NCBI GenBank assembly: GCA_044892525.1
Contig: CM097887.1
Span: 20,584,001-20,648,000 of the forward strand
Reading direction: 5' to 3'
Length of the DNA stretch: 64,000 nucleotides
Source: Schmidtea polychroa
Lineage: Eukaryota
Position numbers and translations under genes: made by a program. The notes beneath the pieces are model-generated. The model was not told the origin of the DNA. It searched no databases and saw only the letters and a program-made list of their open reading frames with translations. Of the stretch, positions 2,475 through 57,306 are shown one piece after another; position 1 is the first letter of the stretch; the number at the start of each line of letters is the position of its first letter.

Positions 2475-4427
2475 CGGTGGTTCCTAACCGAGGGCCTATG
2501 TACCCCGTAAATTTTAACAATTACGCGAAAAGGTTCAATATAATAAAAATAATTATGTAAAGAAAAAAAGGATTGTATAGGAAATAAAACAGCAATTCTA
2601 AATAAATATATTTTTAAAAAAAAACCCCATCCTAAGAAGTTTAGCTTTTCTAATTCATGGTATTTGCCATTTTAAATTTTCCACATGTCCATAAAAACGC
2701 CCCTTTTTTAAATATTTTGTTCTTAAGCAGGCCATGAAATTTTGTTTATTAAAAACAAACAGATTTATCAAAAAATTCTTTAAGTTTGTAAAGTTGTAAA
2801 CTTTTAGCTTATATTTAAAGTTGTGTGATTTGCCTATATTTTTTTGCTCTCCGTGCAAAAATTGTTTAATTTAAAATTAAGAGAGCTCGATTTACAACAG
2901 CAGAAAAACCCCCAAATTACGGATTTATCCCAGAAAAAAAATCAGCTTTGAAAGCAAGTTATCGTGTAGCATTGAGGATTGGAAAAGATGAAAAACCTCT
3001 TACAATTGCAGAAACTCTGATTAAACCATATGCAATGGAAATGGTTGAAATTATGTGTAGTAAAGAAATGAAACTTAACCACAAATCCCATTCATGATAG
3101 AACAATTCATGATCGAATTAAGGTGAATGTAAATCATATCAAGGAAGAAGTTTTATTTTGCGAACCTCTGACAGCAACTCTACAAAAGCTGTAGATATTA
3201 TGTCAATTATGAATATTTTGTTGTCCCCAATGGGCTTACGCGGGATCTTGTGGGCACTATTTGTACTGATGGAAAATTTCTGGATTTATTGCTCTTGTGA
3301 AACAGGAAAACCCAAATATGTATGCTATTCATTGCATTCTGCATTGTCGTGCTTTAGCATCCACCTTATTTCAAAGAATTATTGGATATTATCGTGAAAA
3401 CCATCGACTTTATCAGGTCAAGGACATTGAATCACTGTTGTTCGAAGCAGTTGGGTGTGAGAAAACCATACTTCTGTTGCATATAGAAGTACCTTGGCTA
3501 TCTACCTAGAGGCAAAGTTCTTAGTCGAGTGTTTGAACTTAGGTCACAAATTGAGACATTTCTGTGTGATAAAGATTCAATTCTGATGCATAACTTCACA
3601 GATACTAACTTTATACTTTCTTTTACATACCTTACAGATGTGTTTGGCCATCTTAACTCCTTAAATATATCACTTCATATGAATATATTACAGGACGAAG
3701 AGCGGGTTACATCTTTTCAAGAAAAGTTAAATCAGAAGAGTTAATAATAAAAATTATGCTAATTTTTCATTTTTTGATGAAATGGTTTTGTTGCAGGTCA
3801 ATTCTGAAATTCAAGCCAAAGTTTTGGGTTGGATTAAAATGCATCTTGAAAATCTGCAAATTACTTTCGACGGAATTATACGCCGCAATTTTGTAGCCGA
3901 CAACTGGAAAAAAACCCATTCGCATTATCACTGGATCAAATTAGTGATGATGAAGAAAAAGATGAGCTCATTGAGTTGCAGAATAACAAAAAAAAACGCA
4001 ATGATTTTGATATTATAATGCTACATCCATTCTGGCGCCAACCAAGCAAGCCATATCCTATTTCGTTCAAGAGGGCTTTGCAAGCTGTCATTCCGTTTGC
4101 CACAACATACCTCTGTAAATCTGGATTTTCAGTGCTTGTATTAATAAAAACGAAATTGCGGAACAAACAAAACGCCGAACATGACATGCGGATAGCTCAT
4201 TTGAACACTTTACCACAAATATAACAGTTGGTTGATGATAAGCAGCAACAACGCTCTCATTAAAATATTTTTTACCTTTTGTAATTACTTTTTTACTTAT
4301 TAAATAAAATATGATTTCATTAACAAAAATATGCACATCGTATTTGTATTTAATAAATTACAGAAATAATGAGGGATACGTGAAATTCTAAATTTATACA
4401 TTTACAGCAAAAGTTTGGGAACCATTG
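2475..4427 (+). mobile_element. Degenerate hAT Buster/Charlie (ZBED8/SCAND3-like) DNA transposon with pseudogenised transposase
   Basis: TIRs CGGTGGTTCCTAAC / GTTTGGGAACCATTG and perfect 8 bp TSD GTCTAAAT (2467-2474, 4428-4435). Transposase relics in several frames: KASYRVALRIGK, HCILHCRALAS, LLLHIEVPWLS, YLTDVFGHLNSLN, PFATTYLCKSGFS. Confidence 0.9.
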
Positions 4428-10124: not shown

Positions 10125-10904
10125 GAGACGTTCGAGAGTGCGACCCTCCTGAGTAAACAAGCCTTGTAACATAGTAGTGATTAAATAAAAGATTCTTGTT
10201 GTCTAATGAGTATGTGATTGAACTTTGCGGTTGTCTAAAATAAGATGGTTGGCAGAAAAGCGTTTGGGAAAACAATCTCGATGAGGGACCGAAATAAATC
10301 GGACACGTGCCTTCTATCGGCGTCCGTGAACCCATAGAGTGCTCGACAATTACAGTGCTTGACGCGCTCACTTTTTGCGAGTACTCAACCCCTTGGTACA
10401 GTACCAACGTTGATTGCTCAACGGGTACCAAGAGGAAAACAATGTTGTATTCTGGGTTACGCTGGTAACAGCACTTAAACATTCAACCACCAGTAACCCA
10501 CCAATTTTTATATTTAAATGAAACCTGTAATAATTCAAACAAAAGTTTAAAAAATCGTGGAGGCCTGAGTAAAGTAAGAAATGAGCAAACCAAATGGGGG
10601 ATAGTGAGTGTAAGCTCATTTGTATTATTATTAAGTACAAATAAACAACGGTGGGAAAAGCAAAAAATTAATAATGAGACAAATATCAATTTTAACAAGC
10701 TAAAAATAGGAGAATTATAATAAAATTAAGTAAAAACAATATAAAAGAAAAAAAATCGAAAATGAAAAATGATCAAAAACGAATAAAAACAATTGTTGAA
10801 GTCCGCAAATTAAAATAAATTGAAATGAAATTTAGGTTAATAATTTAAATAAAAAGTAAGTGAAGAAAAATGACAAATAAAAGCGGGATCATGCATAGAA
10901 TCGA

Positions 10905-11820
10905 TGTAGTGAGCCGTTACACGGCCTTAACAATATCTATATACCTATTATACTATATTATATTATATTATACGATATTATATTATATATATAAATGCGC
11001 GGTCACCAGCGACTAAGGACCAAACAGAACACAATAACATTCAATCAAAATTCGTGCGATCAGCTAATACTTCTACTTATCAATCAGGCTCTATTAATCA
11101 ATCTCAGAAGAGTAAAGCAAATTCGATGCCATGTTATCATTATCAAGATAAACTGTATTCGGCTCCCAATAGTTTCAGTGTTGGCTCTCATAGACCAACA
11201 CCCTCATCCATTACAATTCGCGAAATACGGAACAAATCCTAACAATAATATAAAAACCTAAATTTGTTTATTTTGCATTTATTTATTAGTAATTGACTAT
11301 TTGAAATTCTTACGCGAACTTTATAAAATCGTTAAGCTTTTTAAATTATATATTTTTAAAAATCTGTTTATTTTTTATCGAATGATATAATTTTGTATTT
11401 TGTAACTTTGTGTAAATTGTTTACTTATATGTATAAATTTTGTAAAAGATTTCCTGGCTTGTTTATATATTCCAAAAAAAATGAATAAACTGGGTGTTTT
11501 AAAATATTACAATTGTAGTTGTTTTTTTGAGAATTATAATTCGTTTTCAATTTTATCAGCCAATTTGTAGAAAAATGAGACCATTATATACATATAAGGA
11601 ATTAAATAATTGGAAGCCAGTTAATACTAGCAACAAATGTATATTTGATTACCAGAAACCAATATTCCAAGAAATGAATGGAATGAAAGTTGTCGAAAAT
11701 CATAATTCGCAACGCAATAAAGTTCTCTTATGTCATGATATGAAAGGCGGTTATCTAGACGATGCTCTTACTGAAAATTCTATTGCCAAATTACCAGATC
11801 GGATTGCCTCAACTACAACA
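10905..11820 (+). repeat. 5' LTR, 916 bp
   Basis: TGTAGTGAGCC...CAACTACAACA. By eye it differs from the 3' LTR by about 2 substitutions and one net 7 bp indel region. Confidence 0.95.
11575..11763 (+). pseudogene. ENGASE: Captured N-terminal fragment (63 aa) of cytosolic endo-beta-N-acetylglucosaminidase (GH85) inside the 5' LTR
   Basis: MRPLYTYKELNNWKP...SQRNKVLLCHDMKGGYLDD matches the ENGase N-terminal pattern (EL..WKP ... R..LLCHDMxGGYLDD). The catalytic region is absent. Confidence 0.88.
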
Positions 11821-12786
11821 TTGGTGTCAGAAGTGCCAGAACAATGTTCAAGATTTGAACATTTAGAAGCTTATTTAGCGGCTAATATCATTGCTAAATC
11901 CAGATTACAGGAAATACAATCTATGTTAGTTTCTCATAAACGAACAGCGGAATTACTTTCTGAATTAAAACTTTCATCAAAATTTAATCTTATATCCCAT
12001 GATATTGATAGGCTGATAGATCATTTGATAATTGCTCATTTCTGTTGTTTGTCATCGAATCGAGAAGAGTATATCAAATTAATTCAGACAATTCCAGATC
12101 GTGATTCTTTGGATTCCGTAGTCGTTCTATGTGATTCCATTTCGACCCCTGCAAATATCACAGATAATAATCCTATTCCAAATGGTCAATTTCAAATTGC
12201 CGACCCGATAAATAAATCGTCTTTCAAATTTATCAGTAAAAGTATTCAATTACAATCTGAATCATCGGATACTAAATCCGAATTTCCCCTATTCAGTGCT
12301 TTCAATAGCTCAGCTGGTAATGATATTACTGAATTCCACAGTACACTGAATTCCACATCTCCCCTGTCACGGCTTTCAGATCAGAAATCATTTATGAACA
12401 GTTTGAATTCAGTTGGTTCGTCGGATTCTCTGCTGGAAAGTTTCTACCAGTTAAATTCTCAAAACCACGCCGCAATCAACAATAACAACAATAATAATCA
12501 GTCATACGATCACAACATCAATCAACAGGCAAACAACAACGGTGTGCTTAACTACGGTCAGTATCAGGATCGAAACGAAATGGATATAAATCGCATATTT
12601 GGCTCGGAGAAACCGAATTCACATTACGATCAGAAATGTAAAGATACAGCCGATATAGGTTTTGATTCGATTAATGTTTCCCGACAAGCATTGGCTGAGA
12701 TGATTGCCGTTGAAAATCGTAAAAAAATGACTCCGATCAATAATTATATACCAAATAACAAATTGCTAACGAGTGCAACAGAATAA
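11575..12786 (+). CDS. Chimeric ORF0 (about 403 aa): ENGase N-terminus, LTR end and PBS, a helical domain, and a Ser/Asn-rich region
   Basis: Uninterrupted frame from ATG 11575 through the PBS to TAA TGA at 12784-12789. Confidence 0.6.
   Translation: MRPLYTYKELNNWKPVNTSNKCIFDYQKPIFQEMNGMKVVENHNSQRNKVLLCHDMKGGYLDDALTENSIAKLPDRIASTTTLVSEVPEQCSRFEHLEAYLAANIIAKSRLQEIQSMLVSHKRTAELLSELKLSSKFNLISHDIDRLIDHLIIAHFCCLSSNREEYIKLIQTIPDRDSLDSVVVLCDSISTPANITDNNPIPNGQFQIADPINKSSFKFISKSIQLQSESSDTKSEFPLFSAFNSSAGNDITEFHSTLNSTSPLSRLSDQKSFMNSLNSVGSSDSLLESFYQLNSQNHAAINNNNNNNQSYDHNINQQANNNGVLNYGQYQDRNEMDINRIFGSEKPNSHYDQKCKDTADIGFDSINVSRQALAEMIAVENRKKMTPINNYIPNNKLLTSATE
11822..11835 (+). other. Primer binding site complementary to the tRNA-Leu 3' end
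   Basis: TGGTGTCAGAAGTG, one nucleotide after the LTR end, is the complement of ...CACTTCTGACACCA (tRNA-Leu CAA-type 3' end). Confidence 0.85.
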
Positions 12787-13066
12787 TGATTTTTTCACAT
12801 TAAACTCTCGTGCACCGGGACAGCCATTTATTCACGATAATAAACCGTCTCCCAGCGAATCGAGACTCAATCAAGCAATGCCCGTGTCAGCACCGCCAGG
12901 TACCTTAGATCGATTACCTCTAAATTATATTATTATATTATTATTAAATTATACTATATTATTATTGATTTATATTATTATTGATGTCATATATAAAATT
13001 ATAATAAATTATTTAAATAAGCATCAGCCCACACGAGAGGGTGGCGCCGCACCGGGGCCCAAAAAG

Positions 13067-13294
13067 TTCCAAATATTAATAGAAAACCCTGGAACAAATA
13101 AGACACAAACCGTTTCAGTTGACACAGACACTACAATTAAAGGTCTTTCTAAAAATTACAGCATATTGACTAATCACAAATGCCGTTTTCTCTTGTCGTA
13201 TAACGGCACCATCCTTTCTGACAGTCGTACCTTGGGCGACTATGGAGTGACACCATACAGCGTCATTCATTGTTTGTTGCCACTTTCTGGCGGT
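13067..13294 (+). CDS. Ubiquitin-like domain (76 aa, ends LLPLSGG) within ORF 12773-13390, same frame as gag
   Basis: FQILIENPGTNKTQTVSVDTDTTIKGL...LSYNGTILSDSRTLGDYGVTPYSVIHCLLPLSGG aligns residue for residue with ubiquitin (MQIFVK..GKTITLEVEPSDTIENV...[34 protein letters not shown]). Confidence 0.85.
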
Positions 13295-13393
13295 TCCTCC
13301 GATTCGGAGAATGACTCAGGCAGCAACCCCAAACAGGCAAAACATAAACGTAGGTCCAACAACCAGCGATCAACGTACTTATGTCAATAATTT

Positions 13394-14314
13394 TTGGATG
13401 AGAACAACTCTCCACTTACTTGGCTGATAACTACCGAACTAGCACTCGAGGGAATCGAGGTAACCAGTTCACGAGACAAATACTGTCGCATCTTGCCGTT
13501 GATTCCGCCGACGATATTAAGTAAACTTTCGTCCGTGATCCTTCGCACTTCGCCTACTAGCGTAAAAAACCCATATGAAGAATTGCGTACGGCAATCCTC
13601 GATATTTTTAAGGAACCTACAGCTGCCGTCTTCACTAAATACTTTAAGACGCAAACTTTGGGCAGCAGAAAACCGTCACAGTTCTTGCAACACGCTATGG
13701 CGGAACTAACGCAAATACACCCGGAGGCTGCGGCGGATCAAAAACTCTTGAGGCAATTTTTTCTGTCTGCTTTACCGCCACACGCACAACAAATTTTAGC
13801 GCTTTCGTCAACAGCAGACGTGGTAGAGCTAGCAAAGATGGCCGACAAGATTAACGAAGTCGTGCCACTTGGTCCCCAACCAACTTGCTCTGTGCAGTTA
13901 AGTAGCAGCACTAACCCCGAAATTTTACCCTCTTCTTCTTTAAAACCTTCGACCGAAGAAGCCTTACTTTGCGCTATTACAGGCCTCACTAAACGCATCA
14001 GCGAGCTTGAGAATAGCATGTCCACCAGGCGGACAAATGACGACAGGCAATATGCCCAAAAATCACACTTTGTACAAAATACTCGTCAACGTTCACCTTC
14101 ACCTGCAACCAGGAACCTGTGCCGTTTCCATTTTAAGTTTCGTAACAAGGCACGGTTCTGCCATCTAGGTTGCAATTGGCGAGATAAAGCACCATCCTGT
14201 CAGATACTTGACAAGTGTATATACCACGACAGGTTTGGAGATAAAGCCTTAAAATGCTTCGAAGGCTGCTCCAATTACACTAAACCTAAAGCAAGCAATC
14301 AAAAAAACTTATAA
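13394..14314 (+). CDS. gag: Gypsy gag (capsid plus C-terminal Cys/His-rich nucleocapsid)
   Basis: Typical gag pattern LTWLITTELAL..I..SRDKY..ILPLIP, YEELRTAIL, LGSRKPSQFLQ, LLRQFFLSALP, LAKMADKI, and C-terminal CRFHFKFRNKARFCHLGC and CIYHDRFGDKALKC motifs. Confidence 0.9.
   Translation: MDENNSPLTWLITTELALEGIEVTSSRDKYCRILPLIPPTILSKLSSVILRTSPTSVKNPYEELRTAILDIFKEPTAAVFTKYFKTQTLGSRKPSQFLQHAMAELTQIHPEAAADQKLLRQFFLSALPPHAQQILALSSTADVVELAKMADKINEVVPLGPQPTCSVQLSSSTNPEILPSSSLKPSTEEALLCAITGLTKRISELENSMSTRRTNDDRQYAQKSHFVQNTRQRSPSPATRNLCRFHFKFRNKARFCHLGCNWRDKAPSCQILDKCIYHDRFGDKALKCFEGCSNYTKPKASNQKNL
14302..14308 (+). promoter_or_regulatory. -1 ribosomal frameshift heptamer A AAA AAC at the gag-pol junction
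   Basis: Canonical X XXY YYZ in gag frame, one codon before the gag stop. The -1 frame (AAA AAA CTT ATA ATG CCA) is the open protease frame. Confidence 0.75.
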
Positions 14315-17300
14315 TGCCACCACTTCTAGCGGCAGAGGTGGGAGGCAAAATTTCATCAAAATCAGATTTATTTTTAATAGAAGCAGAGTCAAACGCTTTT
14401 AATATATTGTCGTCTCCTTCTAACAGACTAAAATTCCTTGTCGACACTGGCTCCAGCTTGTCGATCTTACCTAAAGAGTACCTTCCAGACCTCAACACTG
14501 TCGATATTTCTTTGAAGGCCGCAAACGGTAGTGTTGTTGAGACTTTAGGTTCAAAGACAATTGCTTTCTCGTTGCCATTTCTGTCCGACCAATTATTTGA
14601 GTGGAAATTTTATATAGCAGAGGTTATTATCCCCATATTAGGATCTGATTTTTTAAGCGCTAACGAACTACTCGTAGATTGCCGTGGACGCACTTTAAGG
14701 ATAAATAATCAATTAAACTGCAGCACTATTCCCTCAAACATCTTTGAAGATCCACAACGGATAGGAACGGACGATATAAATACTATTCCGTCGAAAACGG
14801 TTATAACAATCGAACACCCAAAAATAGCCGTAGATATTATTAATAGGTGTTTTAACACGCCAATAAGTGACGTTTCGAAGCCGCTTTACTGCCACACGAT
14901 CGACACAACTTCATCTTTACCAGTTAGATGCAAAATTAGACCACTGTCGAATGAAAAACTCGAATTTGTACGTTCCGAGTTCACTAACCTCTTACATGAG
15001 GGTACCATTCGGAGATCTAAATCTCCATGGTCATCGCCATTGCACCTGGTCCCAAAAAAAAGATGGCACTTTCCGTCCGTGTGGCGACTATCGAAACCTT
15101 AATGCTATTACGGTACATGATTCCTATAGCATGCCGCTTGTTAGTGATATCCTTCACCGTCTTTCAAAAGCAAAGATTTTCTCCACAATCGACCTCGTGA
15201 AGGCGTACCATCAGATACCCGTGCGAGAGTCTGACATAGAAAAAACAGCCGTAATAACTCCGATCGGACTTTTCGAGTACGTGCATATGCCATTTGGCCT
15301 TCGGAATTCTGCACAGACCTTTCAAAGGTATAATGATCAAGTCTTAATGGACCTACCTTTCGCAGTTCCATACATAGACGACATTTTAGTCGGATCACCT
15401 GATTTAGAGACGCATATAACCCATCTGACAAGAACTTTAACAGCACTTCGGCAATACAACCTTAAGGTAAACGTCGATAAGTGTACCTTCTTCCAACACG
15501 AAACTCGTTTCCTGGGACATTTAATTTCCGGAGATGGAATCCGACCTCCTCCGGATAGACTAGATACCATAGCCAAATTCCCACTTCCAAAAACAGTTTC
15601 ACAACTGAGAAGTTTTTTGGGAACGATAAACTATTGTCATCGTTTTATTCCAGGGGTTTCTGACATTGTGTCACCTCTTTCAGGTCTTGTTTCAAAACAA
15701 AAAAAGTCTTTAGTGTCATGGAGCGATACCACACTCAGTGCATTTGAAAACGCTAAGTCGGCACTTTCGAAAATTCAAACACTCCATTTTCCCAATGCTG
15801 ATTTACCTTGGAGTCTGACCACTGATGCATCAAACGTTGCTATTGGTGCAGTATTACACCAATTACATAATGACATTTCTGAACCCTTAGAGTTTTTCTC
15901 AAAGAAACTTTCTTCCGCTCAACGGAAATATTCGGCTTTCGACCGAGAACTCTTAGGCATATATCTTTCAATCAAACATTTCAAGCACTTGCTTGAAGGT
16001 CGTCCTTTTGTCATCTATACTGACCACAAACCGCTAACTTATCTTTTTGGAATGAAAGACCCATCTCCACGACAACAGAGGCAAATCAGTTATATTTCAG
16101 AATTTTCTTGCGAAATACGCCACATTGCCGGCAAAGAAAACGTTATTGCAGACTGTCTTTCCCGCAGCACCAACGCTATATTGCACGATCCGATATTTCC
16201 AGTACAGTGCCTCCGCGACAATCCACCTTCGGCAAAAGATCTAGCTGCTTTTGGCGATAAACTTGAAATCGTGGACGGAGTACACTTTGACTCGTCTTTA
16301 TCAGGTGTTTTAAGACCGATTTTGCACGATTCCTTACGGAAATTAGCTTTCCACTCCATTCACGACTTACATCATCCAGGCTCGTCGGCTACCTTCAACC
16401 TATTGCATTCACATGTGGTTTGGCCAGCAATGAGGCACGATATTAAATTGTGGGTGAGTCAGTGCATCGGTTCTCAACAACACAAGATCACTAGACACAC
16501 TAAGCCACAGATGATTCACTATCCGACCGGAAATAGGTTCGAAATTCTTCACATCGACCTGGTCGGCCCCTTGCCTTCTGATCGCGGTTTTTCTTACTTA
16601 TTAACTATGATTGACCGGAAAACGCGTTGGTTTGAAGTTATTCCTCTGAAAAACATTTCTGCTGAAATTGTAGCAAATTATATTTTGCAACATTGGATTT
16701 CTAGATACGGTGTTCCGAAATCAATAATCACAGACAGGGGATCTCAGTTTGAATCCCAGTTATTTCAACAGCTAACTGAAAAGCTCGGTATACAACACCT
16801 CCGTTCAACTGCTTACCATCCTCAGACAAACGGCATGATCGAAAGATTTCACCGTACTTTGAAGACCTCTCTTGGAATACTTTCATCGAAACTTAATTGG
16901 ACTAAAGCTTTACCTTTTGTCCTTCTTGGTTGGCGTAACACACCCTCCAGGACTACCGGAACTACACCGGCACAGTTACTTTTCGGTTCTTCAACATCGT
17001 TACCTAACGAATTAGTTGATTTCGATAACGCTCCTACCTTTGAGGAATTAGATATGGCTAGAGATCATTTTCTTTCGATCGATAGCAACCCACAGTTTTC
17101 TTATGCTTCCTCATATACACCGTACGTCCCAAAGTCCTTCAAGGACGCAACTCACGTTTATCTTCGTAATATTACGGATTCAGGTCTCAAACCGAGATAT
17201 TCGGGGCCTTACAAATTGATCGACATTAAGGATAACAATGCCCACATCATAATTAACGGGGTTACCCAAAATATAAATTTGTGCCGACTTAAACCGGCTT

Positions 17301-17680
17301 TTATGATTTCTGATGACGTGGACGAAGACAAACTTCACTCTGATTTAGAGAAAGTCTCAGTCGAACCCATTTCAACTACGTCGAACGAAAACCCTTCAGT
17401 AGAACCTGCCACGGACTCAAACGAAATCGCGCGTACCTTGATCACAAACTACCAACGCGATGAAAATTTAGCTACAGAGAATACACATTCAGCAACAACA
17501 AATCCACTTAATCTTCGCTCAATTGTTTCGAAACCCGACAAGCAGCGAACCGCGAAAAAGGTGAAACATAGTGATAAGATTTGGGTGCGCCAAATTGGGG
17601 AAGACATTTCCAAACCTCCAAGACTTGCCAGAGTCTATTCCAATGAAAATTTGACACATCTGATGCTGAAATTCACTTAA
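14314..17680 (+). CDS. pol: Gypsy pol (protease, RT, RNase H, integrase) with one frameshift in a poly-A run at about 15054-15061
   Basis: PR LVDTGSSLSILP; RT WSSPLHLVPKK|DGTFRPCGDYR, YIDD; RH TDAS, ADCLSR; IN HIDLVGPLP, TDRGSQF, GMIERFH. The run has 8 A where 7 would keep the frame. The integrase zinc finger reads C..S instead of C..C. Confidence 0.95.
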
Positions 17681-17849
17681 CTTTATTCCATGTGATCAAT
17701 TAATTCATCAATCGCCGATTTCCTTTTTAGACACTATCTACCTTTGATAAATTGTCACTACTTTTCGACTTACATCTTGTTTCTAGTAGATCTTTCATCA
17801 ATCTCTATTCTTGAGTCCCTGTGCGCTCCGCGACTTCCCGTGGGGCTGA

Positions 17850-18758
17850 TGTAGTGAGCCGTTACACGGCCTTAACAATATCTATATACCTATTATACTA
17901 TATTATATTATATTATACGATATTATATTATATATATAAATGCGCGGTCACCAGCGACTAAGGACCAAACAGAACACAATAACATTCAATCAAAATTCGT
18001 GCGATCAGCTAATACTTCTACTTATCAATCAGGCTCTATTAATCAATCTCAGAAGAGTAAAGCAAATTCGATGCCATGTTATCATTATCAAGATAAACTG
18101 TATTCGGCTCCCAATAGTTTTAGTGTTGGCTCTCATAGACCAACACCCTCATCCATTACAATTCGCGAAATACGGAACAAATCCTAACAATAATATAAAA
18201 ACCTAAATTTGTTTATTTTGCATTTATTTATTAGTAATTGACTATTTGAAATTCTTACGCGAACTTTATAAAATCGTTAAGCTTTTTAAATTATATATTT
18301 TTAAAAATCTGTTTATTTTTTATCGAATGATATAATTTTGTATTTTGTGTAACTTTGTTTACTTATATGTATAAATTTTGTAAAAGATTTCCTGGCTTGT
18401 TTATATATTCCAAAAAAAATGAATAAACTGGGTGTTTTAAAATATTACAATTGTAGTTGTTTTTTTGAGAATTATAATTCGTTTTCAATTTTATCAGCCA
18501 ATTTGTAGAAAAATGAGACCATTATATACATATAAGGAATTAAATAATTGGAAGCCAGTTAATACTAGCAACAAATGTATATTTGATTACCAGAAACCAA
18601 TATTCCAAGAAATGAATGGAATGAAAGTTGTCGAAAATCATAATTCGCAACGCAATAAAGTTCTCTTATGTCATGATATGAAAGGCGGTTATCTAGACGA
18701 TGCTCTTACTGAAAATTCTATTGCCAAATTACCAGATCGGATTGCCTCAACCACAACA
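17850..18758 (+). repeat. 3' LTR, 909 bp, with a second copy of the ENGase fragment (18513-18701)
   Basis: Near-identical to 10905-11820, preceded by a short purine-rich GTGGGGCTGA and followed by TSD ATCGA. Confidence 0.95.
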
Positions 18759-18763
18759 ATCGA

Positions 18764-21936: not shown

Positions 21937-24573
21937 TCATTTGGCAGAATCGACTTCACCGAAATTGGAATGACCAGTTGCATTGGCGTGCTGAACGAGC
22001 GCTGATTGACCAGTTAATACAATATGACAATCGTGACACATTATTCGGAATCTGTGCATATCTGTAAATTGCTTGCTAGATTTGAGTTCAGCGGCCAGTT
22101 GCCTGGCTTGAGCCATTACCTGGAATATCGATTGGTCAGCTCGTTGACGGAATCCCGGATCAATTCAATGCAGCCGCGAGTAACAGTAATAATAATAACA
22201 ACAACAACATCAACATCAATCCTACTGAATTTGTAATAGTTTGCGAAAGGAAATTTTATAAGTCTATCAGATGAGCAGCAAGCACTGCATGAATGAGATT
22301 GCAGATAAACCCTATGGGTAATTGCAGATTTATCGAAAGGTACGCGGAAGGTTATAAAATCACCAAAAGATGTAAAAACAAACGGAAAGATGGATAAAAA
22401 TAGCTAAGAGAATTTTCTGTCCTGAATAAAGCAGAAAGGATGGGAGGAACAGGAGACCCGACCTCCTCCCGTTTACCATGGAAACAGATCTCGGCAATAA
22501 AATTGTGCCAAACTACTCGATAACTTCCTGATATATAGTTTAGAAACGTCAAAGGTGAAGGAAATATGAAAACCACCAATAAAATTTGAGAATCTCTGCA
22601 AAAGAATTTGATTGGTCAATTTTTAAAAATGTTGCAAAATAGCGCTCTTACTTAATTTTACATTACAAACCTTTTACAATGGGTATTATCTGTATGGCGG
22701 AGAGCTTCCTGGCATTATAAGCGCAACATTTTCAATGAAAAGTGGAATATCGATAATTACCCATTCATGGAACAGAAACCAAAAGACAAAACCAATTACA
22801 AATATAATCACAATTTCATTTATAATCACGAACAACGCAGTCAATATACATTCAGAATGGGGACAAAGCACCCAATAATCATGATTAGGGACACCGAGGG
22901 GCCGCTGGGAATTACCCATCTAGCTAACGGCAACATTGGCATGCGATATATCAATTGAAAGCGCTTCAACGGTAGGATTGATTATAATTTATTAGACGTC
23001 CTCATTTTGCAATGATAATAAATTACGGCATGATGATTACACGGATTGGCTAGCAATAGGGAACGGTAACCCCCTTCCCTTCCACCCTTCCAAATTATGC
23101 TCCAACCTAATAAATACTCATGAAATTGTAAACGTAATTAATACCGACTGGGAACTTCATTATCGGGTTATATAGATAAATTCATCACCATGGCAACCAC
23201 CCATTTAAGTTACTAATGAAACGACAATTTATTCTAACATAAATTTAAAATTTTTTATTTACTAATCAATAAATAATCCTTTTCTCTGACAAAATTCCTT
23301 AAACAAAATATTTTGTTCCCCTTCCGCTCCCTCCCCACCCTTCACCGATTTAATTTATTGATTTACTCTTTAATAGAAACCCCCCGACTAATTATCATTA
23401 TAAATATTCAATTGTTAAATTCAACTCAAAAAAATTAATAATTCATAAGAAAAATCGTATAAATAACCGAATTGAAAGCTGCCAATAATGCAATATTAAA
23501 ATCAACCAATAAAAATTCGATATATAAATATCCACCAATCACAATCAAATAGGCATTATTAGCAAATCAAAATCAATTATAGTATAAAAATAGCATTTAA
23601 TCTTACATCATCGTTTGATATGGAGAATTTCGAGGTCAATTTCCCGGAATTTATATCCTCGCTTGCCAAAGCATCGTAATGAATGCCGTCGTAGAGAATT
23701 AGAATTTTCTCCAAAAAATTCTTGTCTTCACCAAATCGATCGATTCGATCAAAATTTATGTTGACAACGTCGATCTCGATTTTGTTTAAACAACTTAACA
23801 AATGCAATTCGATTGATCCACCCCATTTCGAATTCTATAACTGTTTATTCTCGATTCTTTAATTTCCATAGATCGACTTACATCCATTATCCATTCGCAA
23901 TACGTTTCTGGTGTTTTCCCTTCAAGAAACGCCTTGTCGAATTGCTCTGGTTGGCTTAGTAGCATTGCTGCAATTGTCTGGCGTTCATTGTCGGATTCGA
24001 ATCCACGCAGGCTTGCATTGTTTAGACAGTAATATACACTGGCAAAAAGACAGGAATTATCAGCGGGAATTGTTTGCTTGGTTAATATAGATGCCGAAAT
24101 TTTTTGCTGAGCGTCTATTAAATTATCTACAGATTTCTTTTCTATTTCCACGTTGTTTTCAATCACAGGCTCAAATTTATTATCATTTGAAATTTTGACA
24201 AAATTTTCTTCATTGTCATTTTCTAATTTTATTTTTTTCACTCCTACATTTTCTTGAATCTTTTTCAAAATTATACAATCTCCGGTTTTTATTTTAGCCT
24301 GAATTATATTGATAAAATGTAAAAAATGAAAATTTAATTATTCATTAAACATTTAATTTGAAATTAGTAAATAATTACTTCTAATAATGTCAAATCTAAA
24401 TTCATTAGTATCGGCTTTGGTGGAAATCCAGTTAATAGGTCAATATCATTACTGCCAATATTTGTAACTTTTCGTATTTCATCAACTAAATCTTGAATAG
24501 TGCTATTGGAAGAAAGACTGACTAGAGTACACGACGAATCCGATTTGATTTTTAATTTAACTGAAGAGGTCAT
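21937..24573 (-). CDS. YOD1: OTU1/YOD1 deubiquitinase, 4 exons (24573-24379, 24298-23882, 23834-23607, 22119-21937), about 340 aa
   Basis: UBX-like N-terminus (LLTGFPPK), catalytic IPADNSCLF, WGGSIEL and YDGIHYDAL, and a C-terminal C2H2 finger (KQFTDMHRFRIMCHDCHIVLTGQSALVQHANATGHSNFGEV). All three GT-AG introns are phase 0 (80, 47 and 1487 bp). Confidence 0.93.
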
Positions 24574-26726: not shown

Positions 26727-28076
26727 AATTGTGGCAGTGGGCTTCAATGTTTTTTTTCAATACATTTAGATAGGCCCTATAGAAAAAAGGCCATTTGTGG
26801 CAGTGGGCTCTAATGTTTTTTGTCAATACATTTAGATGAGCTCTATAGAAAAAAGGCCAAGATTTCTCTGATTATAGTGAGGGGTCTCCTTGATACAAAA
26901 TCCGATTATCACTAAAAAGCATGGTAATTTAAGGTCTCAGGATATTTTCAATAGAAAAAGGCGGTCTTCAATAAAGAAGCGTGGTAATTTAAGGTTTCAA
27001 AATATTTTCAATACAAAAAGCCAAGGATTATTCAGATTATTGTAAGGGGGTCTCCTTGGTCCTGGGATTTTCAATACAAAATCCGTCTATCACTGAAAAA
27101 GCCATTGTAATTAAAGGTCTCAGGATATTTTCAATACAAAAAGCCAAGGATTATTCAGACTATAGTGAGGGGTCTCCTTGGTCCCAGGATTTTCAATTCA
27201 AAAAAGAGTTTATTCTAAAAAAGCGTGGTAAATTTTTCAATTAAAGTAAATTATGGGTCTAAAAATTCAATTACAGTAAATTATGGACTCAGATCTTTGA
27301 ATTATAGTAATGATGGGTCTAATTTTTTAGAACCTTAATTTACTTATTTGAACCCACTGATTACTTTAATTTAAAAATTTAGATCTTAATTAACTTATTT
27401 GAACCTTAATTTACTTTAATTTAATTTTTAGACCCATCATTTACTATAATTCAAAAATCTGAGCCCTTAATTAACTTTAATTTAATTTTTAGACCCATAA
27501 TTTACTTTAATTGAAAAATTTACCAACCTTTATAGAGTAACCCTTTTTTGAATTGAAAATCCCAGGACCAAGGAGACCCCCTTACTATAGTCTGAATAAT
27601 CCTTAGCTTTTTGTATTAAAAATATCCTGAGACCTTAAATTAATATAGCGTTTTTATTGATAATTGAAATTTGTATTGAAAATATAATAATACTGACTTA
27701 CCCTTGGCTTTTTGAATTGAAAATATCCTGAGACCTTAAATTACCACTCTTTTTTATTGAAGACCACCTTTTTCTATTGAAAATCCCAGGACCAATGAGA
27801 CCCACCCAAATAATACTGACTTATCCTTGGATTTTTGTATTGAAAATATCCTGAGACCTTAAATTACCATACTTTTTAGTAATAATCGGATTTTGTATTG
27901 AAATACCAGGACCAAGGAGACCCCCTCACTATAGTCAGAGAAATCTTGGCCTTTTTTCTATAGAGCCCATCTAAATGTATTGAAAAAAACATTGGAGCCC
28001 ACTGCCACAATGGACTTTTTTTTATAGGCCCCTTTTTTTGTATTGAAAAAAAACATTGGAGCCTACTGCCACAATT
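26727..28076. mobile_element. Foldback-like element: about 1.35 kb imperfect palindrome with modular arms of about 600-650 bp
   Basis: The left arm (AATTGTGGCAGTGGGC... to about 27325) is the reverse complement of the right arm (about 27428 to ...GCCTACTGCCACAATT). Both arms are built from internally repeated modules. No TSD identified. Confidence 0.8.
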
Positions 28077-42804: not shown

Positions 42805-45122
42805 CTTATAGGGCTTGTCTCAGTATCCACTTTAATTTTATTTACTTAATTATGTTGATTAAAACAACAAAAAAAAATAACTCAAACTAAAAATGTTTGG
42901 CTGTTTATGGGCTTGGTCTAACATTTGTTCGTTTTATTATTGGAAATTGCATGTTCCGTTATTTGTATGTTCATCAATTTTTTCAACCTTTTCTTGGATC
43001 AATTAAATTTTACATGGAATAATAATCTATAATATTAAAACATTAATACATTTATATTATGGAGACACATAAATTTACTTGTGTGTTAAATTTAAATGTT
43101 TCATGATTACACCCGTTTGTGAAATATAACATAGCCTATAATCTAAAAAAAATCAATAAATATATATTATAGGAACACACCACTGTGTGTAAAAATTTAA
43201 TGCTGCGAAAGTTAACATATTTATTATAGGAATCTAAAAAGTGAGAGAAAATAATTAAGCATACAAACACAGCACACATAATGAAAAATACATACAAAAT
43301 TAAGTAAAGTGTTTTTTTTGCGAAATTAACATTGATTAACATATAATTAACATATTAATTATTTTCAAATTATTTAAAAGTTATGCGCAAAAAAACTTTT
43401 AAATCAGATTCCGACTGCTCTACCTTAGGCTTTAGAGAAAAAGAAGAATACATCGTAAGATTTAATTATAAAATAATTTTGAATATAAAATTTCTTTAGA
43501 TTTACAGATATTGAAGGTCCTTCGACATCTTTGAATTTGCAGGAAAAAAATCGCAAATCGTAAATTTTAATAAATTATTTTAACAAATTAATATTTTCAT
43601 AGAATTACAGAAAAAGACAAAATTCGAAAGAAGATTACAAAAACTTAAAAAACTATTTTATCCATTCTTTACTAAATGTCTTAAAAAAATAAATGTTTTG
43701 TGAATACTTTATTTATTTATAATTATAAAAATATCTAACTTACATTTTTACGAAATAAATCCAAATAAAAATTCATAAAATTCCTAAAAAACACCTGAAA
43801 TTTAATTATCAATGTTATATTACAAATGTTGACTAACAGTAATATTTAAGAACTTGAATAATGATCTCATAATTATATAAAATCAAAATTCAAGTCCTAA
43901 AAATTACTTTAATTCAAAAACTTACCTTAAAACGATTTTTGAAAAATAGAATAAATGAAATTAAGTTAATATTGTCATATAATTGGTGACTCACCTCAGC
44001 TGGTGTGCACACCAACGTATATTATAGACAATGTTAACTTTCGCAAACGGGTGTAATAATATTTAATATAGAAATTGAGAAAAGGTAGAATGAAATAATA
44101 ACATTTTAAATATTATATTTTAAAGAAACAATGATAGATATAAATTTAAAATTTAATGTTCCAAGTTTTACTAGATTCTGCTTTACTATTCGAAAAAATA
44201 ATAAGGAAAACATTAAATGATTAAGACGAATTTCATTTTAAATGGTTTTTATGAATACCAAAAAGTTTATTTAGCTTTATAAATTTTAAATATTATAAAA
44301 TAAATGTAAAAATATAAAAACATAATTTAGTAAAATTTCGCCAATTTTGTCCCAAAATCATAACCATCAAATTTAAGTTAAAAATAATTAAAACTTTCTC
44401 TAAATTGAAAAAAATTCCAAAAAATACCAAAGTTACGTAATTAAATTATATTAATAAATTAAATAATTAAATTTTGAATAAAACGAATTATTACTTTTCA
44501 GATTTAAGGAAATCCGGCTTGACGACCAAAAATTATTTTTCAAAATTTTTATAAATATCTTTTTTATTTAGTTATTTATCAATTTAGTTAATTTTACTTA
44601 TTCGTTTATTCTTATTGAATTAAAATTATTTGTTTGAATATTCAATTGAAAAATTATTATTTGAAATTTAAAGAAAACAGAAAAAATAAAAAAATTATTA
44701 AACAACATCAATTAACAAAAAAAATAATTTTATTTTTATATAGTTTATGAAAATGATATAAAATAAAGGGCATTCCTGTAGGAATTGAAGGCAGTAGCAA
44801 ATCGACAGTTACCAATACCTTTTATTATGACACCCAATGTAAATATAAATATCCCAAAAGAAATTTGATATCGCAAAAATCTTGCGTTTGTGAGTTTTAC
44901 AAAATGGGTTGCTAAAATAATTTATAAAATATATATTTAAAAGAAGTTTTGAAACGAAATTAATGTGAATGACGATGACCCCATTTGGGGGGGGGGTGCT
45001 ATATAAGTGATTGTTTAATAATATCAAGGATGACATTGCAATTTCAGAAAGAATTTATTCGGGAAATATTCTCAAAACATTTACAAATCAGATTCATCAG
45101 AAATAATAAAAGGTCTCAAACA

Positions 45123-45486
45123 TCATTTCGAAAGGTTTTCATTTTGTTCACCAATAATCACACGAAACGGTGGCATCCTTCCCGGTAACGCAAGATTGTC
45201 AACATTGCTAGTAGAATCATATTTGGTATCGAATTCGTGAGATTCCGGCAAGACTTTTCCTTTACGGTTTCTGTTAAATCTTTGAACTCCAAGAATTACA
45301 ATTATTATTGCAATGCTGGCGCCTGCTGCCATAATGACGGATATTATTATAATATTGTATTGGTATTGGTGATTATGACTCCATTTTCCATTTTCATCCA
45401 CCGATAATCGGACCCCCATAGGAGTTTCCAGAGAGGTGACGACAGTCATATTGGGTCCGAATCCCAACTAACAAAGACAATTTTAA

Positions 45487-45557
<71 letters not shown>

Positions 45558-47895
45558 TAGTAATAATATAAAGTCTTACATCAATAAAAGGTGGTCGGTA
45601 GAGAGGAGGTTGCTCCCTCGTGCTAAGAGCGTTATTCCTAACGCAATAAGAAATTTGACAAGCTCGGTCGACAATGGCCACATGAGATGAATATCCGGTT
45701 GAGCAACCTTGAGGCCAATATTTGGGATCTTGGGTAATATTGTGGAGAGTACTATCTAGAAGAGGATTTCCAACTTTGCAACTGAACCAGAATATGAAAC
45801 TCATTTATCATATGTATAAGATAGGGAATAATTNNNNNNNNNNNNNNNNNNNNNNNNNNNNNNNNNNNNNNNNNNNNNNNNNNNNNNNNNNNNNNNNNNN
45901 NNNNNNNNNNNNNNNNNNNNNNNNNNNNNNNNNNNNNNNNNNNNNNNNNNNNNNNNNNNNNNNNNNNNNNNNNNNNNNNNNNNNNNNNNNNNNNNNNNNN
46001 NNNNNNNNNNNNNNNNNNNNNNNNNNNTAGAATAATACCTATACATTCCTCCGAATGGCAAATGATCCCCTAAAGCCTTTTCCTTATTGAATGCTAAACA
46101 AATCTTGGCAGTCATTCCAAATTGGGATGCATAATAATTCTCTGGACAATTATAGGAACTGGTAATTGGATTTGGATAAGATTTTGTGTAAAATCCTCCA
46201 AATAAGGCACCTTCAGTATATCTGGCTTGATTTTTAGGAGCACACCAATAGAGTGCATAATGTGAGCATTCACCCTCGCATTTATTCAATCCACTTTGCA
46301 ATTCAATGGTTTCGTAGTTATCAGGGCAGGAATAACCGTTTGTTACTGGGTTAACTGCGTTTACATCTACGCACTGGGACGTTGGGCCTGTGCAGGTTTG
46401 AAAAGTTCCTCCTAGCGTATAGAATGTATTAGGAGGTTCACAAGTTCCACCATCAACATTCGCATCGTCATTGAAATTCTCTGACTCCATATTCATGCAT
46501 CCTAATGGAATGAGATCATATTATTACGGAAACATTGGAATGAAAATGAAAATTTATCTTACCCACTCTCGTGTTGGCAGCGTAATATCTATTCACAGCT
46601 TCTTTGATAAGCGTTGAGATTTTGTAAACTATTTTCTCGTCAAATTCTGGAAGACTTCTCGGTGTGATTGCATAGTTCAAGGGTTCACCTTTGCGATCAA
46701 TTGCAACCAAATTTGTTTCTAGGGTTTTCTCCCAATCTTCCAGTTTAAAATTCGAACCAAATGGTATACCACCAAAGGTTTCAATTTTAGTGCTGGCACT
46801 ATTATTATTAAATTCATTGAGGTTCGTGGTGTCACCAACATAGGTTCCTTTGAGGTTGATTGAAAGCATTGTTGTCATACTGAATGATGCGGCAGCTGCT
46901 ANNNNNNNNNNNNNNNNNNNNNNNNNNNNNNNNNNNNNNNNNNNNNNNNNNNNNNNNNNNNNNNNNNNNNNNNNNNNNNNNNNNNNNNNNNNNNNNNNNN
47001 NNNNNNNNNNNNNNNNNNNNNNNNNNNNNNNNNNNNNNNNNNNNNNNNNNNNNNNNNNNNNNNNNNNNNNNNNNNNNNNNNNNNNCTTTGACATAATTTG
47101 ATTTTAGAACGTCAGTTTTGATTAGAGTCGCTCCCGCGTCCACCGACCTAATGACATGAGTGCCGAAGTCACGGACAATTAAATCCGCTAAATATTGCGG
47201 ATAAATTGTGTCTTTCCCCTCCTTCAATAACGCTCCGATATCCAGAATTCGGTTCCGGAATTCAGGATCAAATTTGGAGTCTGGTTGGAATGAAACGGTA
47301 TATAATTCATGCCTCAACTGAGCTCGAGAAACTGACGACTTTTCTTTGATCTGAATTAAATTCGCTGATATAAATTACATTTACTTTGAATAGTTTTACT
47401 TGATCGTTCTTTATTGCTATTTTTTCAAATGAAAATGATCCACTGATCTTATAACCTATTGAAGCAAAGCTTGCGTCAGCATTTATAGACATTGCTGTTG
47501 CCGACGTGATGTTAGAGAAATGATCGAATATGTCAGAGGTTAAATCAACAGTAGATCTCTTATTTGGTCTGATTATTATGTCTTTTGGAATGAGAAAGCT
47601 GCCATCATTCGAAGCCAAACATTCTTTATATGAAATTTCCAATACTTGACCAAGTTCCTTGTTTTCAAGATTATCCCATCCAGATCCTGGAAGGATATCG
47701 AATGCGTATTGTTTGTTGGTAAGTTTGCACTCATGGACTCGCCTCTCTGATGGGAGGTCTCTGTTCGATTCGCCTTCACATGAGACGGATCTGAAAATAT
47801 TACTCCTTCAATAAAGTCTCCATTTTATCATTTACTTACAGAACTCCACAAACAAATATAAATAATATTATATTACTAAATCTACACCGTATCAT
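45123..47895 (-). CDS. MPEG1: Perforin-2/MPEG1 copy A (signal peptide, MACPF, P2, TM, tail); contains N gaps
   Basis: Spliced N-terminus MIRCRFSNIILFIFVCGVL|SVSC, LPGSGWDNL, FGTHVIRSVDAGA, WEKTLETNLVAIDRKGEPL, CMNMESENFNDDANVDGGTC, LFGGFY, CKVGNPL, and a hydrophobic TM segment near the C-terminus. Confidence 0.9.
45487..45560. repeat. (AAT)n microsatellite in the last intron of MPEG1 copy A
   Basis: AAT run between the LYRPPFID exon and the LGFGPN exon. Confidence 0.9.
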
Positions 47896-48558
47896 TGATT
47901 TCACGCTTGAGTAAATAAATGGTCAATTTGATTCCCGTTTGAAAGATTTATATTGTTTCAGGATGCACGTGATTAGAATGATCCGATTGTAGTAGAGATT
48001 CAGAATGATTACATCATCACAATGTCTACTTTGCATGTTATCGCGACTCGAGTGATGTGAATCATTCAATGAAATTTCGGCGCTCGAATTTTAATGTCAT
48101 TAATCACTCGAAATTTATTTAATTATAAATTAAAATTTTTACGCTCTACAGTTGTTCTTCATAAGGCTCCACAGCTGAATAAGAAAGCAAAAGTTAATTA
48201 ATATTTGTTAGTGAAGAGTTTTCAAATTAGAGGATATTGTAGGTCCCCGAACACATATTGGCCATTGGAAGCGATATCAGGAAAGTTGAAACCTTGAAAA
48301 CTAAACTGAAATTAATTTATAAAATGATTAATGCAGGAATTTCAAGTGATTCAAATAATCAATATTAAAGTGCCCACGATTGATTAAAATAATTCACATC
48401 ACTCAAGTCACGATAGCCCTCACCGTCGATATTGTGATGATGTAATCATTCCGAATCTCTACTACAATCGGATCATTCTAATCACGTGCATCCTGAATCA
48501 ATATAAATCTTTCAAACGGGAATCAAATTGAACATTTATTTACTCAAGCGTGAAACCA

Positions 48559-51484: not shown

Positions 51485-51870
51485 TGTTTGAGACCTTTTA
51501 TTATTTCTGATGAATCTGATTTGTAAATGTTTTGAGAATATTTCCCGAATAAATTCTTTCTGAAATTGCAATGTTTATCCTTGATATTATTAAAAGATTT
51601 TGTATTCTACAGTCTTACTATTAGAGATAAAAATAGAATATTATTAAAACTTTATTAAATTTAATTAATTTAAAATGAAGAGCTATTGAGATTTAGGATT
51701 CGTTGAGAAATATATGAAGTGTAAGGGGTTAAATAATTGATTTTTGATAGTTATTGTTATTATATTTATGATTATTGTTGTTTATATACTCACTCATGCA
51801 AGACCTAAAAACAACAAACATACAAGCACCTTAATTTTTAAATTTTCTGATGAATTTAATCGCTATAAAG

Positions 51871-57046: not shown

Positions 57047-57306
57047 CTCTAACTCATAAAATTAAAAAAGAATTTTTAAACAAAATAAATATATAAAATT
57101 ATGATAATAACAATTTGAATGCTGACAGTTAGTAAAAACAATTTATGATACTCAATTCGAGATATTACAACATAAGGTCATCAGAATGACGTAATCATGC
57201 GGATTCTTGAATATGTTCAGATAACCCTTATCACGTGAGTCCTTAACAGCATATTTCATTCATATAGGAACCAAAATACTCATTTGTTTATTCAACAGTA
57301 AAACCA

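What the first reader, a model, noticed from the sequence alone, without database searches (positions are those of the whole stretch)
12773..14314. Ubiquitin-like domain ending in di-Gly sits in frame upstream of a Gypsy gag
Seen: a 76 aa ubiquitin-fold sequence (13067-13294, ending LLPLSGG), then an acidic linker and basic NLS-like stretch (SSDSENDSGSNPKQAKHKRRS), then a single TAA (13388-13390), then gag in the same frame. Known: Ub/Ubl fusions ending in GG are cleaved by deubiquitinases; ubiquitin fused to retroviral Gag can substitute for late domains; pestiviruses use captured Ub/Ubl as a processing signal. Inference: this lineage captured a Ubl and may use it as a host-cleavable leader or a stability/trafficking tag for Gag. 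The domain is far from canonical ubiquitin yet keeps fold residues, length and GG, which suggests retention under selection. I know of no described Ubl-Gag LTR retrotransposon, but cannot search to confirm.
Basis: partly seen in the sequence, partly recalled or inferred. Interest (0 to 1): 0.9.

Follow-up and report, generated by a model that had tools for sequence, protein, structure and literature searches.

The report
Ubiquitin release site in retrotransposon Gag
A young family of jumping genes appears to start its capsid protein from start codons taken from host messenger RNAs and carries a ubiquitin-like domain just before the capsid, most likely as a cut site that lets host enzymes trim the borrowed front end away; an unrelated family in the same genome shows the same layout.

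Summary
13067-13294 is a true ubiquitin fold ending in Gly-Gly, in frame with the Gag of a young Ty3/gypsy element (10905-18758). The TAA is a private lesion (1 of 37 copies), not a recoding signal. In most fetched copies one open frame of about 900-1050 codons starts at an ATG inside the LTR, crosses the primer-binding site and a leader, then Ubl-GG, then Gag. The LTR starts are spliced 5' ends of different host mRNAs (here ENGase), and the leader holds host coding fragments in native frame. The leader drifts in sequence but keeps its frame. Gly-Gly precedes Gag in 31 of 31 testable members of one Gag clade (3 of 21 outside). A BEL/Pao-type family in the same genome shows the same layout with di-ubiquitin. 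Best reading (0.7): a host-protease release site that frees Gag from whatever host N-terminus was captured. Transcription, translation and cleavage are not shown. The tail is non-canonical (LPLSGG), and the Ubl body is weakly constrained. Ten literature searches and five look-ups in this scan's notes found no description.

The parts
10900..10904 (.). 5-bp target-site duplication, left copy (right copy 18759-18763)
   Evidence: sequence
10905..11820 (+). 5' LTR, TG...CA, 916 nt, 98.7% identical to the 3' LTR; constant 5' part, variable captured middle, constant last ~45 nt
10988..10997 (+). TATA-like box (function inferred)
11537..11776 (+). Captured spliced 5' end of the host endo-beta-N-acetylglucosaminidase (GH85) mRNA; host ATG at 11575 is in frame with ORF1; the host's 48-nt GT-AG intron is absent. 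Second copy in the 3' LTR at about 18475-18714
11822..11835 (+). Primer-binding site, read through in frame (tRNA-Leu identity recalled, not tested)
12131..12327 (+). Leader piece copied from host gene L192 (GW182/TNRC6-like; name is a weak Atlas lead), native frame
12339..12878 (+). Leader piece copied from host gene L194 (CNOT4-like), native frame; a frameshifting deletion private to this copy lies near 12774
12920..13018 (+). AT-rich stretch, stop-free only in the ORF1 frame, encoding a hydrophobic segment (possible membrane anchor)
13067..13294 (+). Ubiquitin-like domain, 76 aa, Met1 lost, ending LSGG (Gly-Gly 13289-13294): proposed release site
13295..13387 (+). Acidic then basic linker, predicted disordered; would form the new Gag N-terminus after cleavage
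13388..13390 (+). TAA, a nonsense lesion private to this copy
13391..14314 (+). Gag: DUF7041 N-terminal domain, helical core, doubled Cys/His motif (14120-14173, 14216-14269)
14298..14346 (+). A-run followed by a stable hairpin (z -3.4) at the gag/pol overlap; likely -1 frameshift signal (inferred)
14290..17680 (+). pol, PR-RT-RH-IN; broken in this copy by a frameshift near 15060-15075; one 1129-codon frame in many other copies
17839..17849 (+). Purine-rich tract before the 3' LTR
17850..18758 (+). 3' LTR

Best explanation
The Ubl-GG is a built-in release site. During reverse transcription this family switches template onto co-packaged host mRNAs, so its LTR ends in a host 5' UTR with ATG and first codons, and its leader collects host coding fragments (shown as sequence; the switching step is inferred). 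Copies that spread keep these pieces in frame with Gag (shown), so ORF1 is most likely translated from a borrowed start codon through the primer-binding site into leader-Ubl-Gag(-Pol) (inferred). A host deubiquitinase or Ubl protease then cuts after Gly-Gly, giving Gag one fixed N-terminus whatever was captured upstream (inferred), as ubiquitin does for pestivirus NS3.
For: (1) One open frame from the primer-binding site through Ubl to the Gag end in 24 of 33 other copies with a mapped 5' LTR. The frame is open for at least 45 codons into the LTR in 34 of 34 copies, with an in-frame ATG in 30 of 34. (2) Five LTR cargo types. Four were traced to host genes, all in the host frame with the host ATG; introns are missing in three, and two junctions lie at microhomologies. 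(3) Leader pN/pS 0.89 against Gag 0.34 (shared changes 0.88 against 0.08, P 1e-4). All inherited leader indels are net in frame (five events plus one compensating -1/+1 pair), whereas private ones often shift. (4) Gly-Gly 5-60 aa before Gag in 31 of 31 clade members against 3 of 21 outside. In 38 anchored rows Arg stands at P5 in 25 and Pro never follows Gly-Gly, while Ubl bodies share only 24% identity. (5) Relatives begin with H2A, Arp8, Hsp90, 5'-nucleotidase, SCC3 or CNOT1/Rrp44 pieces. (6) A BEL/Pao-type family in the same genome has host piece, primer-binding site, AT-rich stretch, di-ubiquitin and Gag in one frame in 3 of 4 copies read. (7) Precedent: cellular hydrolases cut captured ubiquitin to release pestivirus NS3 (PMC8310069).
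Against: Cleavage, translation and transcription are not shown. The tail here is LPLSGG, lacking both arginines of ubiquitin, so the protease is unknown. Ubl pN/pS (0.77; 13 non-synonymous, 5 synonymous) cannot be told from the drifting leader (P 0.76) and is weaker than Gag (P 0.024). Five ATGs lie between the TATA-like box and the captured ATG, so plain scanning does not explain initiation. L102 and L103 lack an in-frame LTR ATG, and their two LTRs match end to end, so that form was probably copied; in-frame Mets also exist in the leader. L193 is a copy with an in-frame deletion of the Ubl and the Gag start. In BEL/Pao copy L063 the host piece is out of frame with ubiquitin. The 40 copies were chosen partly for long open frames, which inflates the intact fraction. 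The distant relatives are predicted ORFs from unnamed assemblies.
Confidence: 0.7

Rival explanations
1. The cut is real, but its main purpose is timing or place: the hydrophobic stretch anchors nascent Gag to a membrane, or the leader-Ubl is sent to the proteasome, and the cut releases Gag for assembly. Capture of host starts would be a side effect that the cut merely tolerates.
For: Hydropathy 2.67 over 19 residues just upstream of the Ubl; one captured start carries what reads as a signal peptide before a MANEC-like domain; similar stretches occur in L062 and in the BEL/Pao family.
Against: Only 9 of 21 relatives reach hydropathy 1.6 in the 200 residues upstream; AT-rich codons alone give Ile/Leu/Tyr/Phe; the stretch is shortened in L071, L074 and L075.
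Confidence: 0.14
2. The Ubl stays on Gag uncut and acts as a stability, trafficking or late-domain-like tag.
For: The fold is kept; the tail of this family is non-canonical.
Against: What the clade keeps is the tail (RxxGG, never followed by Pro), not the body (24% identity); an uncut Gag would carry 450-600 residues of variable host sequence; no env gene was seen between pol and the 3' LTR.
Confidence: 0.1
3. The Ubl is one more neutral host fragment kept only because it is in frame.
For: Within-family pN/pS like the leader; the family captures host mRNA readily.
Against: Same position and di-Gly in a clade whose Gag proteins are 26-42% identical to the query; leader pieces are swapped between subfamilies while the Ubl is not; an independent occurrence in a BEL/Pao-type family.
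Confidence: 0.04
4. The TAA is a programmed read-through stop between a Ubl ORF and gag.
For: Only the in-frame arrangement in this copy.
Against: Present in 1 of 37 copies; this copy carries other private lesions.
Confidence: 0.01

Closest known systems
Pestivirus ubiquitin/Ubl insertions before NS3 (BVDV Osloss, CP1, CP Rit; PMC8310069, passages read)
   Same: Captured cellular ubiquitin inside a polyprotein serves as a processing signal; host hydrolases give the downstream protein an authentic N-terminus.
   Different: There, sporadic recombinants of an RNA virus with near-canonical ubiquitin. Here, a fixed, diverged domain across a retrotransposon clade, paired with captured host start codons. 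Cleavage is shown there, inferred here.
LTR-mediated retroposition and Bs1-type chimeras (Tan et al. 2016, PMC5131818, abstract and passages read)
   Same: Spliced host mRNA pieces enter LTR elements by template switching at microhomologies, often several genes and often in frame.
   Different: In the passages read these are internal retrocopies that make non-autonomous chimeras. Here the cargo sits in both LTRs and in the leader of elements that keep full gag and pol, and it supplies the ATG of the Gag frame.
Burro/GYPSM1 giant planarian gypsy elements (PMC6431247, passages read)
   Same: A gypsy-type Gag ORF that holds a ubiquitin/SUMO-like domain (PF11976) and host-like domains.
   Different: Burro is about 30 kb with Gag at the N-terminus and the SUMO-like domain downstream; no di-Gly release site or LTR-borne start is described in the passages read.
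DUF7041-Gag Ty3/gypsy elements (CsRn1-like; clade name recalled)
   Same: DUF7041 Gag, Cys/His motif, PR-RT-RH-IN order, overlapping pol, no env.
   Different: The 68 such Gag proteins outside the clade have short N-termini or no ubiquitin tail and almost all a single Cys/His motif.
2A-like sequences in non-LTR retrotransposons (PMC3708506, abstract read)
   Same: A virus-like device that separates a retrotransposon protein from upstream sequence.
   Different: Ribosomal skipping by a short peptide in LINE-type elements, not proteolysis at a folded Ubl in LTR elements.

Membership tests
Ubiquitin superfamily (beta-grasp) | Profile match and fold | tested here: met
   Pfam PF00240 above cut-off; model matches ubiquitin
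Ubiquitin superfamily (beta-grasp) | C-terminal di-Gly at the ubiquitin position | tested here: met
   (40 of 40 rows listed; one of 41 loci gave no row)
Canonical ubiquitin / conjugatable modifier | LRLRGG tail and high identity to ubiquitin | tested here: not met
   Tail LPLSGG, about 30% identity; near-canonical only in P0017, P0044 and the BEL/Pao family
Ubiquitin-fusion precursors / pestivirus-type processing signal | Cleavage after Gly-Gly by a host protease | not testable with these tools
   Indirect only: tail conservation and no Pro after Gly-Gly
Ty3/gypsy (Metaviridae) | LTRs, target-site duplication, primer-binding site, purine tract | tested here: met
Ty3/gypsy (Metaviridae) | PR-RT-RH-IN order and Ty3-like RT | tested here: met
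   Pfam order; best solved relative Ty3 RT, E 1.8e-61
Ty3/gypsy (Metaviridae) | Capsid fold of Gag | tested here: inconclusive
   Helical, high-confidence model and DUF7041 match, but both fold searches were filled by the Ubl
CsRn1 clade | RT phylogeny with named CsRn1 references | not tested
   Name recalled from DUF7041 Gag and the Cys/His motif; two papers searched did not hold the term
LTR-mediated retrocopy (Tan et al. 2016) | Intron-less host mRNA piece joined at microhomology | tested here: met
   Introns absent for L197, L195, L168; shared junction bases for L116 and L195
LTR-mediated retrocopy (Tan et al. 2016) | Internal retrocopy in a discontinuous, non-autonomous element | tested here: not met
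   Cargo lies in LTRs and leader of copies with full ORF1 and 1129-codon pol
Burro/GYPSM1 | About 30 kb, N-terminal Gag, BIR/MATH/BCL2/env domains | tested here: not met
   7.9 kb element, Gag at the C-terminus of ORF1, none of these Pfam domains
BEL/Pao (second family, L063 and L198-L200) | DUF1759 Gag within LTRs | tested here: met
   the link between DUF1759 and BEL/Pao is recalled
BEL/Pao (second family, L063 and L198-L200) | BEL/Pao-type RT and integrase | not tested
   Only 2.5-3 kb of three copies and one internally deleted copy were read

The most novel reading that the evidence does not exclude
A general, convergently evolved expression strategy of LTR retrotransposons ('start-snatching with ubiquitin release'): the element has no fixed start of its own, keeps replacing the 3' part of its LTR with host mRNA 5' ends, translates Gag from the borrowed ATG through the primer-binding site, and uses a captured ubiquitin and host deubiquitinases to restore one Gag N-terminus. 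It arose at least twice, in a Ty3/gypsy clade and in a BEL/Pao family, and the ubiquitin can be refreshed by recapture.
Probability: 0.5. Interest if true: 0.93.

Novelty: new variant of a known kind. Interest (0 to 1): 0.85.

Why it matters
It would make a host deubiquitinase a maturation factor for LTR retrotransposons, and show autonomous elements routinely borrowing host 5' UTRs and start codons. That ties their translation, and possibly their small-RNA silencing, to host genes. It also means dozens of LTR copies carry near-identical spliced pieces of host genes (for example 45 ENGase and over 50 L195-type matches), which can confound RNA mapping, RNAi and gene models in this genome. The prediction, a Gag N-terminus right after Gly-Gly, is directly testable.

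Tried and rejected
Read-through at the TAA: rejected. An intron over the AT-rich stretch from the GT at 12900: 122 or 128 nt to the nearest AG, which would shift the frame; rejected on the sequence. The search for homologous proteins found nothing for Ubl-Gag or for the leader (word-index limits). The search for related loci could not use the alignments, and a single-protein scan gave four loci of ordinary DUF7041-type elements, none showing a Ubl in the printed frames. Expression: no RNA holder listed. Contigs of guessed-RNA runs cover LTR, leader and Gag, and one 189-nt contig bridges the Ubl end and the Gag start, but run type, strand and RNA ends cannot be told, so this is not used. A recalled likeness of the first ~45 LTR bases to a planarian spliced leader could not be checked. 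The name TAB1-like for host gene L195 is recalled and got no Pfam or PDB support. No host Ubl gene closer than ubiquitin was found among the 121 matches; the low-identity rows read were other elements or decayed copies. Atlas search of Ubl-Gag gave only DUF7041 clusters under 0.9.
Full report
Observation. 13067-13294 encodes 76 residues ending LLPLSGG, then a 31-residue acidic and basic linker, TAA at 13388-13390 and a 307-codon Gag frame. Pfam calls the segment ubiquitin (E 1.9e-10, above cut-off) and its Gly-Gly aligns with the end of ubiquitin. A model built on 38 sequences, with copy L091 as query, gives a beta-grasp at pLDDT about 90, a disordered linker and a helical Gag. Ubiquitin is the best fold match in both searches.

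The element. It spans 10905-18758, with 98.7% identical LTRs, a 5-bp target duplication, a primer-binding site (PBS) at 11822 and PR-RT-RH-IN with Ty3 RT as best solved relative. Gag carries DUF7041; I recall this as CsRn1-like but did not test it. The host looks like a planarian (inference from genome size, composition and four large contigs). The Ubl gave 121 matches among 150 scored of 427 candidates in the genome. I fetched 40 copies at 10 kb, chosen partly for long open frames, so intact fractions are inflated. Most paired LTRs are 99-100% identical, so the family is young.

The stop is a lesion. It is present in 1 of 37 aligned copies. This copy also has a frameshifting deletion near 12774 and a frameshift in pol. 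In 24 of the 33 other copies with a mapped 5' LTR, one frame runs from the PBS through a leader of about 440-465 codons and the Ubl to the end of Gag, and many have a 1129-codon pol. Gly-Gly is intact in 40 of 40 rows listed; one decayed locus gave no row.

Where ORF1 starts. The frame is open at least 45 codons into the LTR in 34 of 34 copies, with an in-frame ATG in 30. LTRs vary from about 750 to 1365 nt: a constant 5' 220-350 nt, a variable middle and a short conserved end. Five 3' cargo types occur, and four trace to host genes. The window's LTR holds the ENGase 5' end with the host ATG at 11575 and the 48-nt intron removed. Another type holds host gene L195 with two introns removed, another a MANEC/KIAA0319-like gene with one removed, and another the first coding exon of an isochorismatase-like gene. 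All four keep the host frame into Gag (chance 1/81 if frames were free). Homology starts some 35-70 nt before the host ATG, and two junctions lie at bases shared with the LTR end. This fits a switch of the minus-strand strong-stop DNA onto a co-packaged mRNA (inferred). One LTR type also holds a lipin 3' end.

The leader is host sequence too. 12131-12327 comes from gene L192 (GW182-like, weak Atlas lead) and 12339-12878 from L194 (CNOT4-like), both in native frame. An older subfamily has more of L192 in place of L194. In 22 copies with open ORF1, pN/pS is 0.89 in the leader, 0.77 in the Ubl and 0.34 in Gag; in 15 with open pol it is 0.16-0.41. For changes shared by two or more copies, leader and Gag differ (P 1e-4). 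Inherited leader indels are all net in frame: -12, +12, +3, -51, -6 and one compensating -1/+1 pair. Private ones often shift. L074 was set aside because its leader differs. The AT-rich stretch at 12920-13018 is stop-free only in the ORF1 frame. So the frame is under selection and the leader's residues are not.

The clade. A search of 1.84 billion representatives returned 150 proteins, 122 of them Gag-like. In a tree of 105 Gag sequences all ubiquitin-tailed ones fall in one group of 37 (support 0.87). Gly-Gly lies 5-60 residues before Gag in 31 of 31 members with enough upstream sequence, against 3 of 21 outside; five Gly-Gly proteins with short Gag were left out of the tree. Anchored on Gly-Gly, 38 rows show Leu at P4 in 32 (partly set by my selection pattern), Arg at P5 in 25 and no Pro after the site. 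Ubl bodies average 24% identity against 36% for the Gag core. Pfam finds ubiquitin in 11 of 32 clade proteins (3 over the cut-off) and 0 of 6 outsiders. A profile of 32 segments without the two near-canonical ones still scores polyubiquitin-type repeats at 42-50 bits. P0017 and P0044 carry near-canonical ubiquitin while five close relatives have 19-26% identity to that of P0017, which suggests recapture. Nine of 20 read through a PBS-like peptide (12 with two motifs added after looking), and six carry host pieces: H2A, Arp8, Hsp90, 5'-nucleotidase, SCC3, CNOT1/Rrp44. These are predicted ORFs from unnamed assemblies; hosts are unknown and chimeric assembly is not excluded. A second, mostly decayed family of the same clade lies in this genome (L062).

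Convergence. A weak hit led to a family with DUF1759 Gag (BEL/Pao-type; association recalled) and two near-canonical ubiquitin units before Gag. All 150 scored of 1052 candidates matched, about 100 across both units and the linker. In three copies read over 2.5-3 kb, different host pieces (a dual-specificity phosphatase, a Ras-family and a TCP-1 chaperonin fragment) run in one frame through a PBS and an AT-rich stretch into di-ubiquitin and Gag. In the fourth, internally deleted copy the host piece is out of frame. Its pol was not examined.

Mechanism. Shown: architecture, host origin of starts and leader, frame conservation, clade-wide tail, and a parallel family. Inferred: capture by template switching, translation from the borrowed ATG, and a host protease cut after Gly-Gly that frees Gag with a fixed N-terminus (0.7). 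That deubiquitinases do not cut before Pro is recalled. Against: no RNA or protein evidence; the LPLSGG tail; a weakly constrained Ubl body; five ATGs upstream of the captured one; copies L102 and L103 without an LTR ATG; and L193 without the Ubl. All seven ENGase-type LTRs differ from the host at two bases that create AG dinucleotides before the ATG, a hint of splicing there, untested.

Comparison and novelty. Ubiquitin as a processing signal is known from pestiviruses (PMC8310069, passages). Host mRNA capture by LTR elements is known (PMC5131818, abstract and passages). A SUMO-like domain is known inside Burro ORF1 (PMC6431247, passages), and 2A peptides in non-LTR elements (PMC3708506, abstract). 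The Belpaoviridae profile (PMC8742986, whole text) describes a non-coding region around the PBS and no ubiquitin. I found no description of Ubl-GG-Gag or of LTR-borne host start codons. The searches aimed at this were (listings only, apart from the papers named); searches covered planarian elements, spliced leaders and pestiviruses. Passages of PMC11410931 and PMC7346339 and term look-ups in PMC2577118 and PMC2774666 added nothing. This scan's notes held nothing on it. Subscription papers, the 2018 planarian genome paper and its supplements, and Repbase or GyDB entries could not be seen and may annotate these families.

Verdict. The feature is real and larger than first read. Its parts have precedents, so I file it as a new variant of a known kind; the combination, fixed in one clade and repeated in a second superfamily, would surprise a specialist. 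Interest 0.85.

Noticed in passing
L063, L198, L199, L200 (G000 C1, C2): A BEL/Pao-type family of about 100 or more copies with host gene pieces, a read-through primer-binding site, di-ubiquitin and DUF1759 Gag in one frame; deserves its own study.
   Followed up: partly
L062 (G000:C2:41315829-41316203): Remnant of a second Ty3/gypsy family of the same clade in this genome, with a Ubl ending IYGG, 43% identical over Ubl and linker.
   Followed up: partly
window 10913-10955: The first LTR bases recall a planarian spliced-leader sequence (recalled, could not be checked in print).
   Followed up: partly
window 11550-11577: All seven ENGase-type LTRs differ from the host gene at two bases that create AG dinucleotides just before the captured ATG; possibly a gained splice acceptor.
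   Followed up: no
L078 LTR; host L196: About 800 nt of a lipin mRNA 3' end with its UTR is captured in the LTR of one subfamily (five matches in the genome, one of them the host gene).
   Followed up: partly
L093 5' LTR: An insertion of about 460 nt with inverted-repeat-like ends interrupts the captured ENGase piece in the 5' LTR only.
   Followed up: no
L095:1828-1850, 3008-3056 and near 1393 (window 11837-11859, 12874-12921, about 11385): Contigs laid run on into other coding sequence at these points, which suggests further, older host captures in the leader and LTR.
   Followed up: no
L193 (G000:C3:40775200-40777199): A copy with an in-frame internal deletion that removes most of the leader, the Ubl and the first Gag residues.
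   Followed up: partly
window 45033-51574 and 57245-62023: A large palindromic repeat with nested inverted arms and a second, diverged copy.
   Followed up: no
window 26817-27989: A palindrome of about 1.2 kb built from short repeats.
   Followed up: no
window 38190 to about 39400: A tandem array with an 11-nt period.
   Followed up: no
window 23795-24337, minus strand: An open frame whose end resembles an OTU1/YOD1-type deubiquitinase exon (recalled motif; no Pfam support).
   Followed up: no
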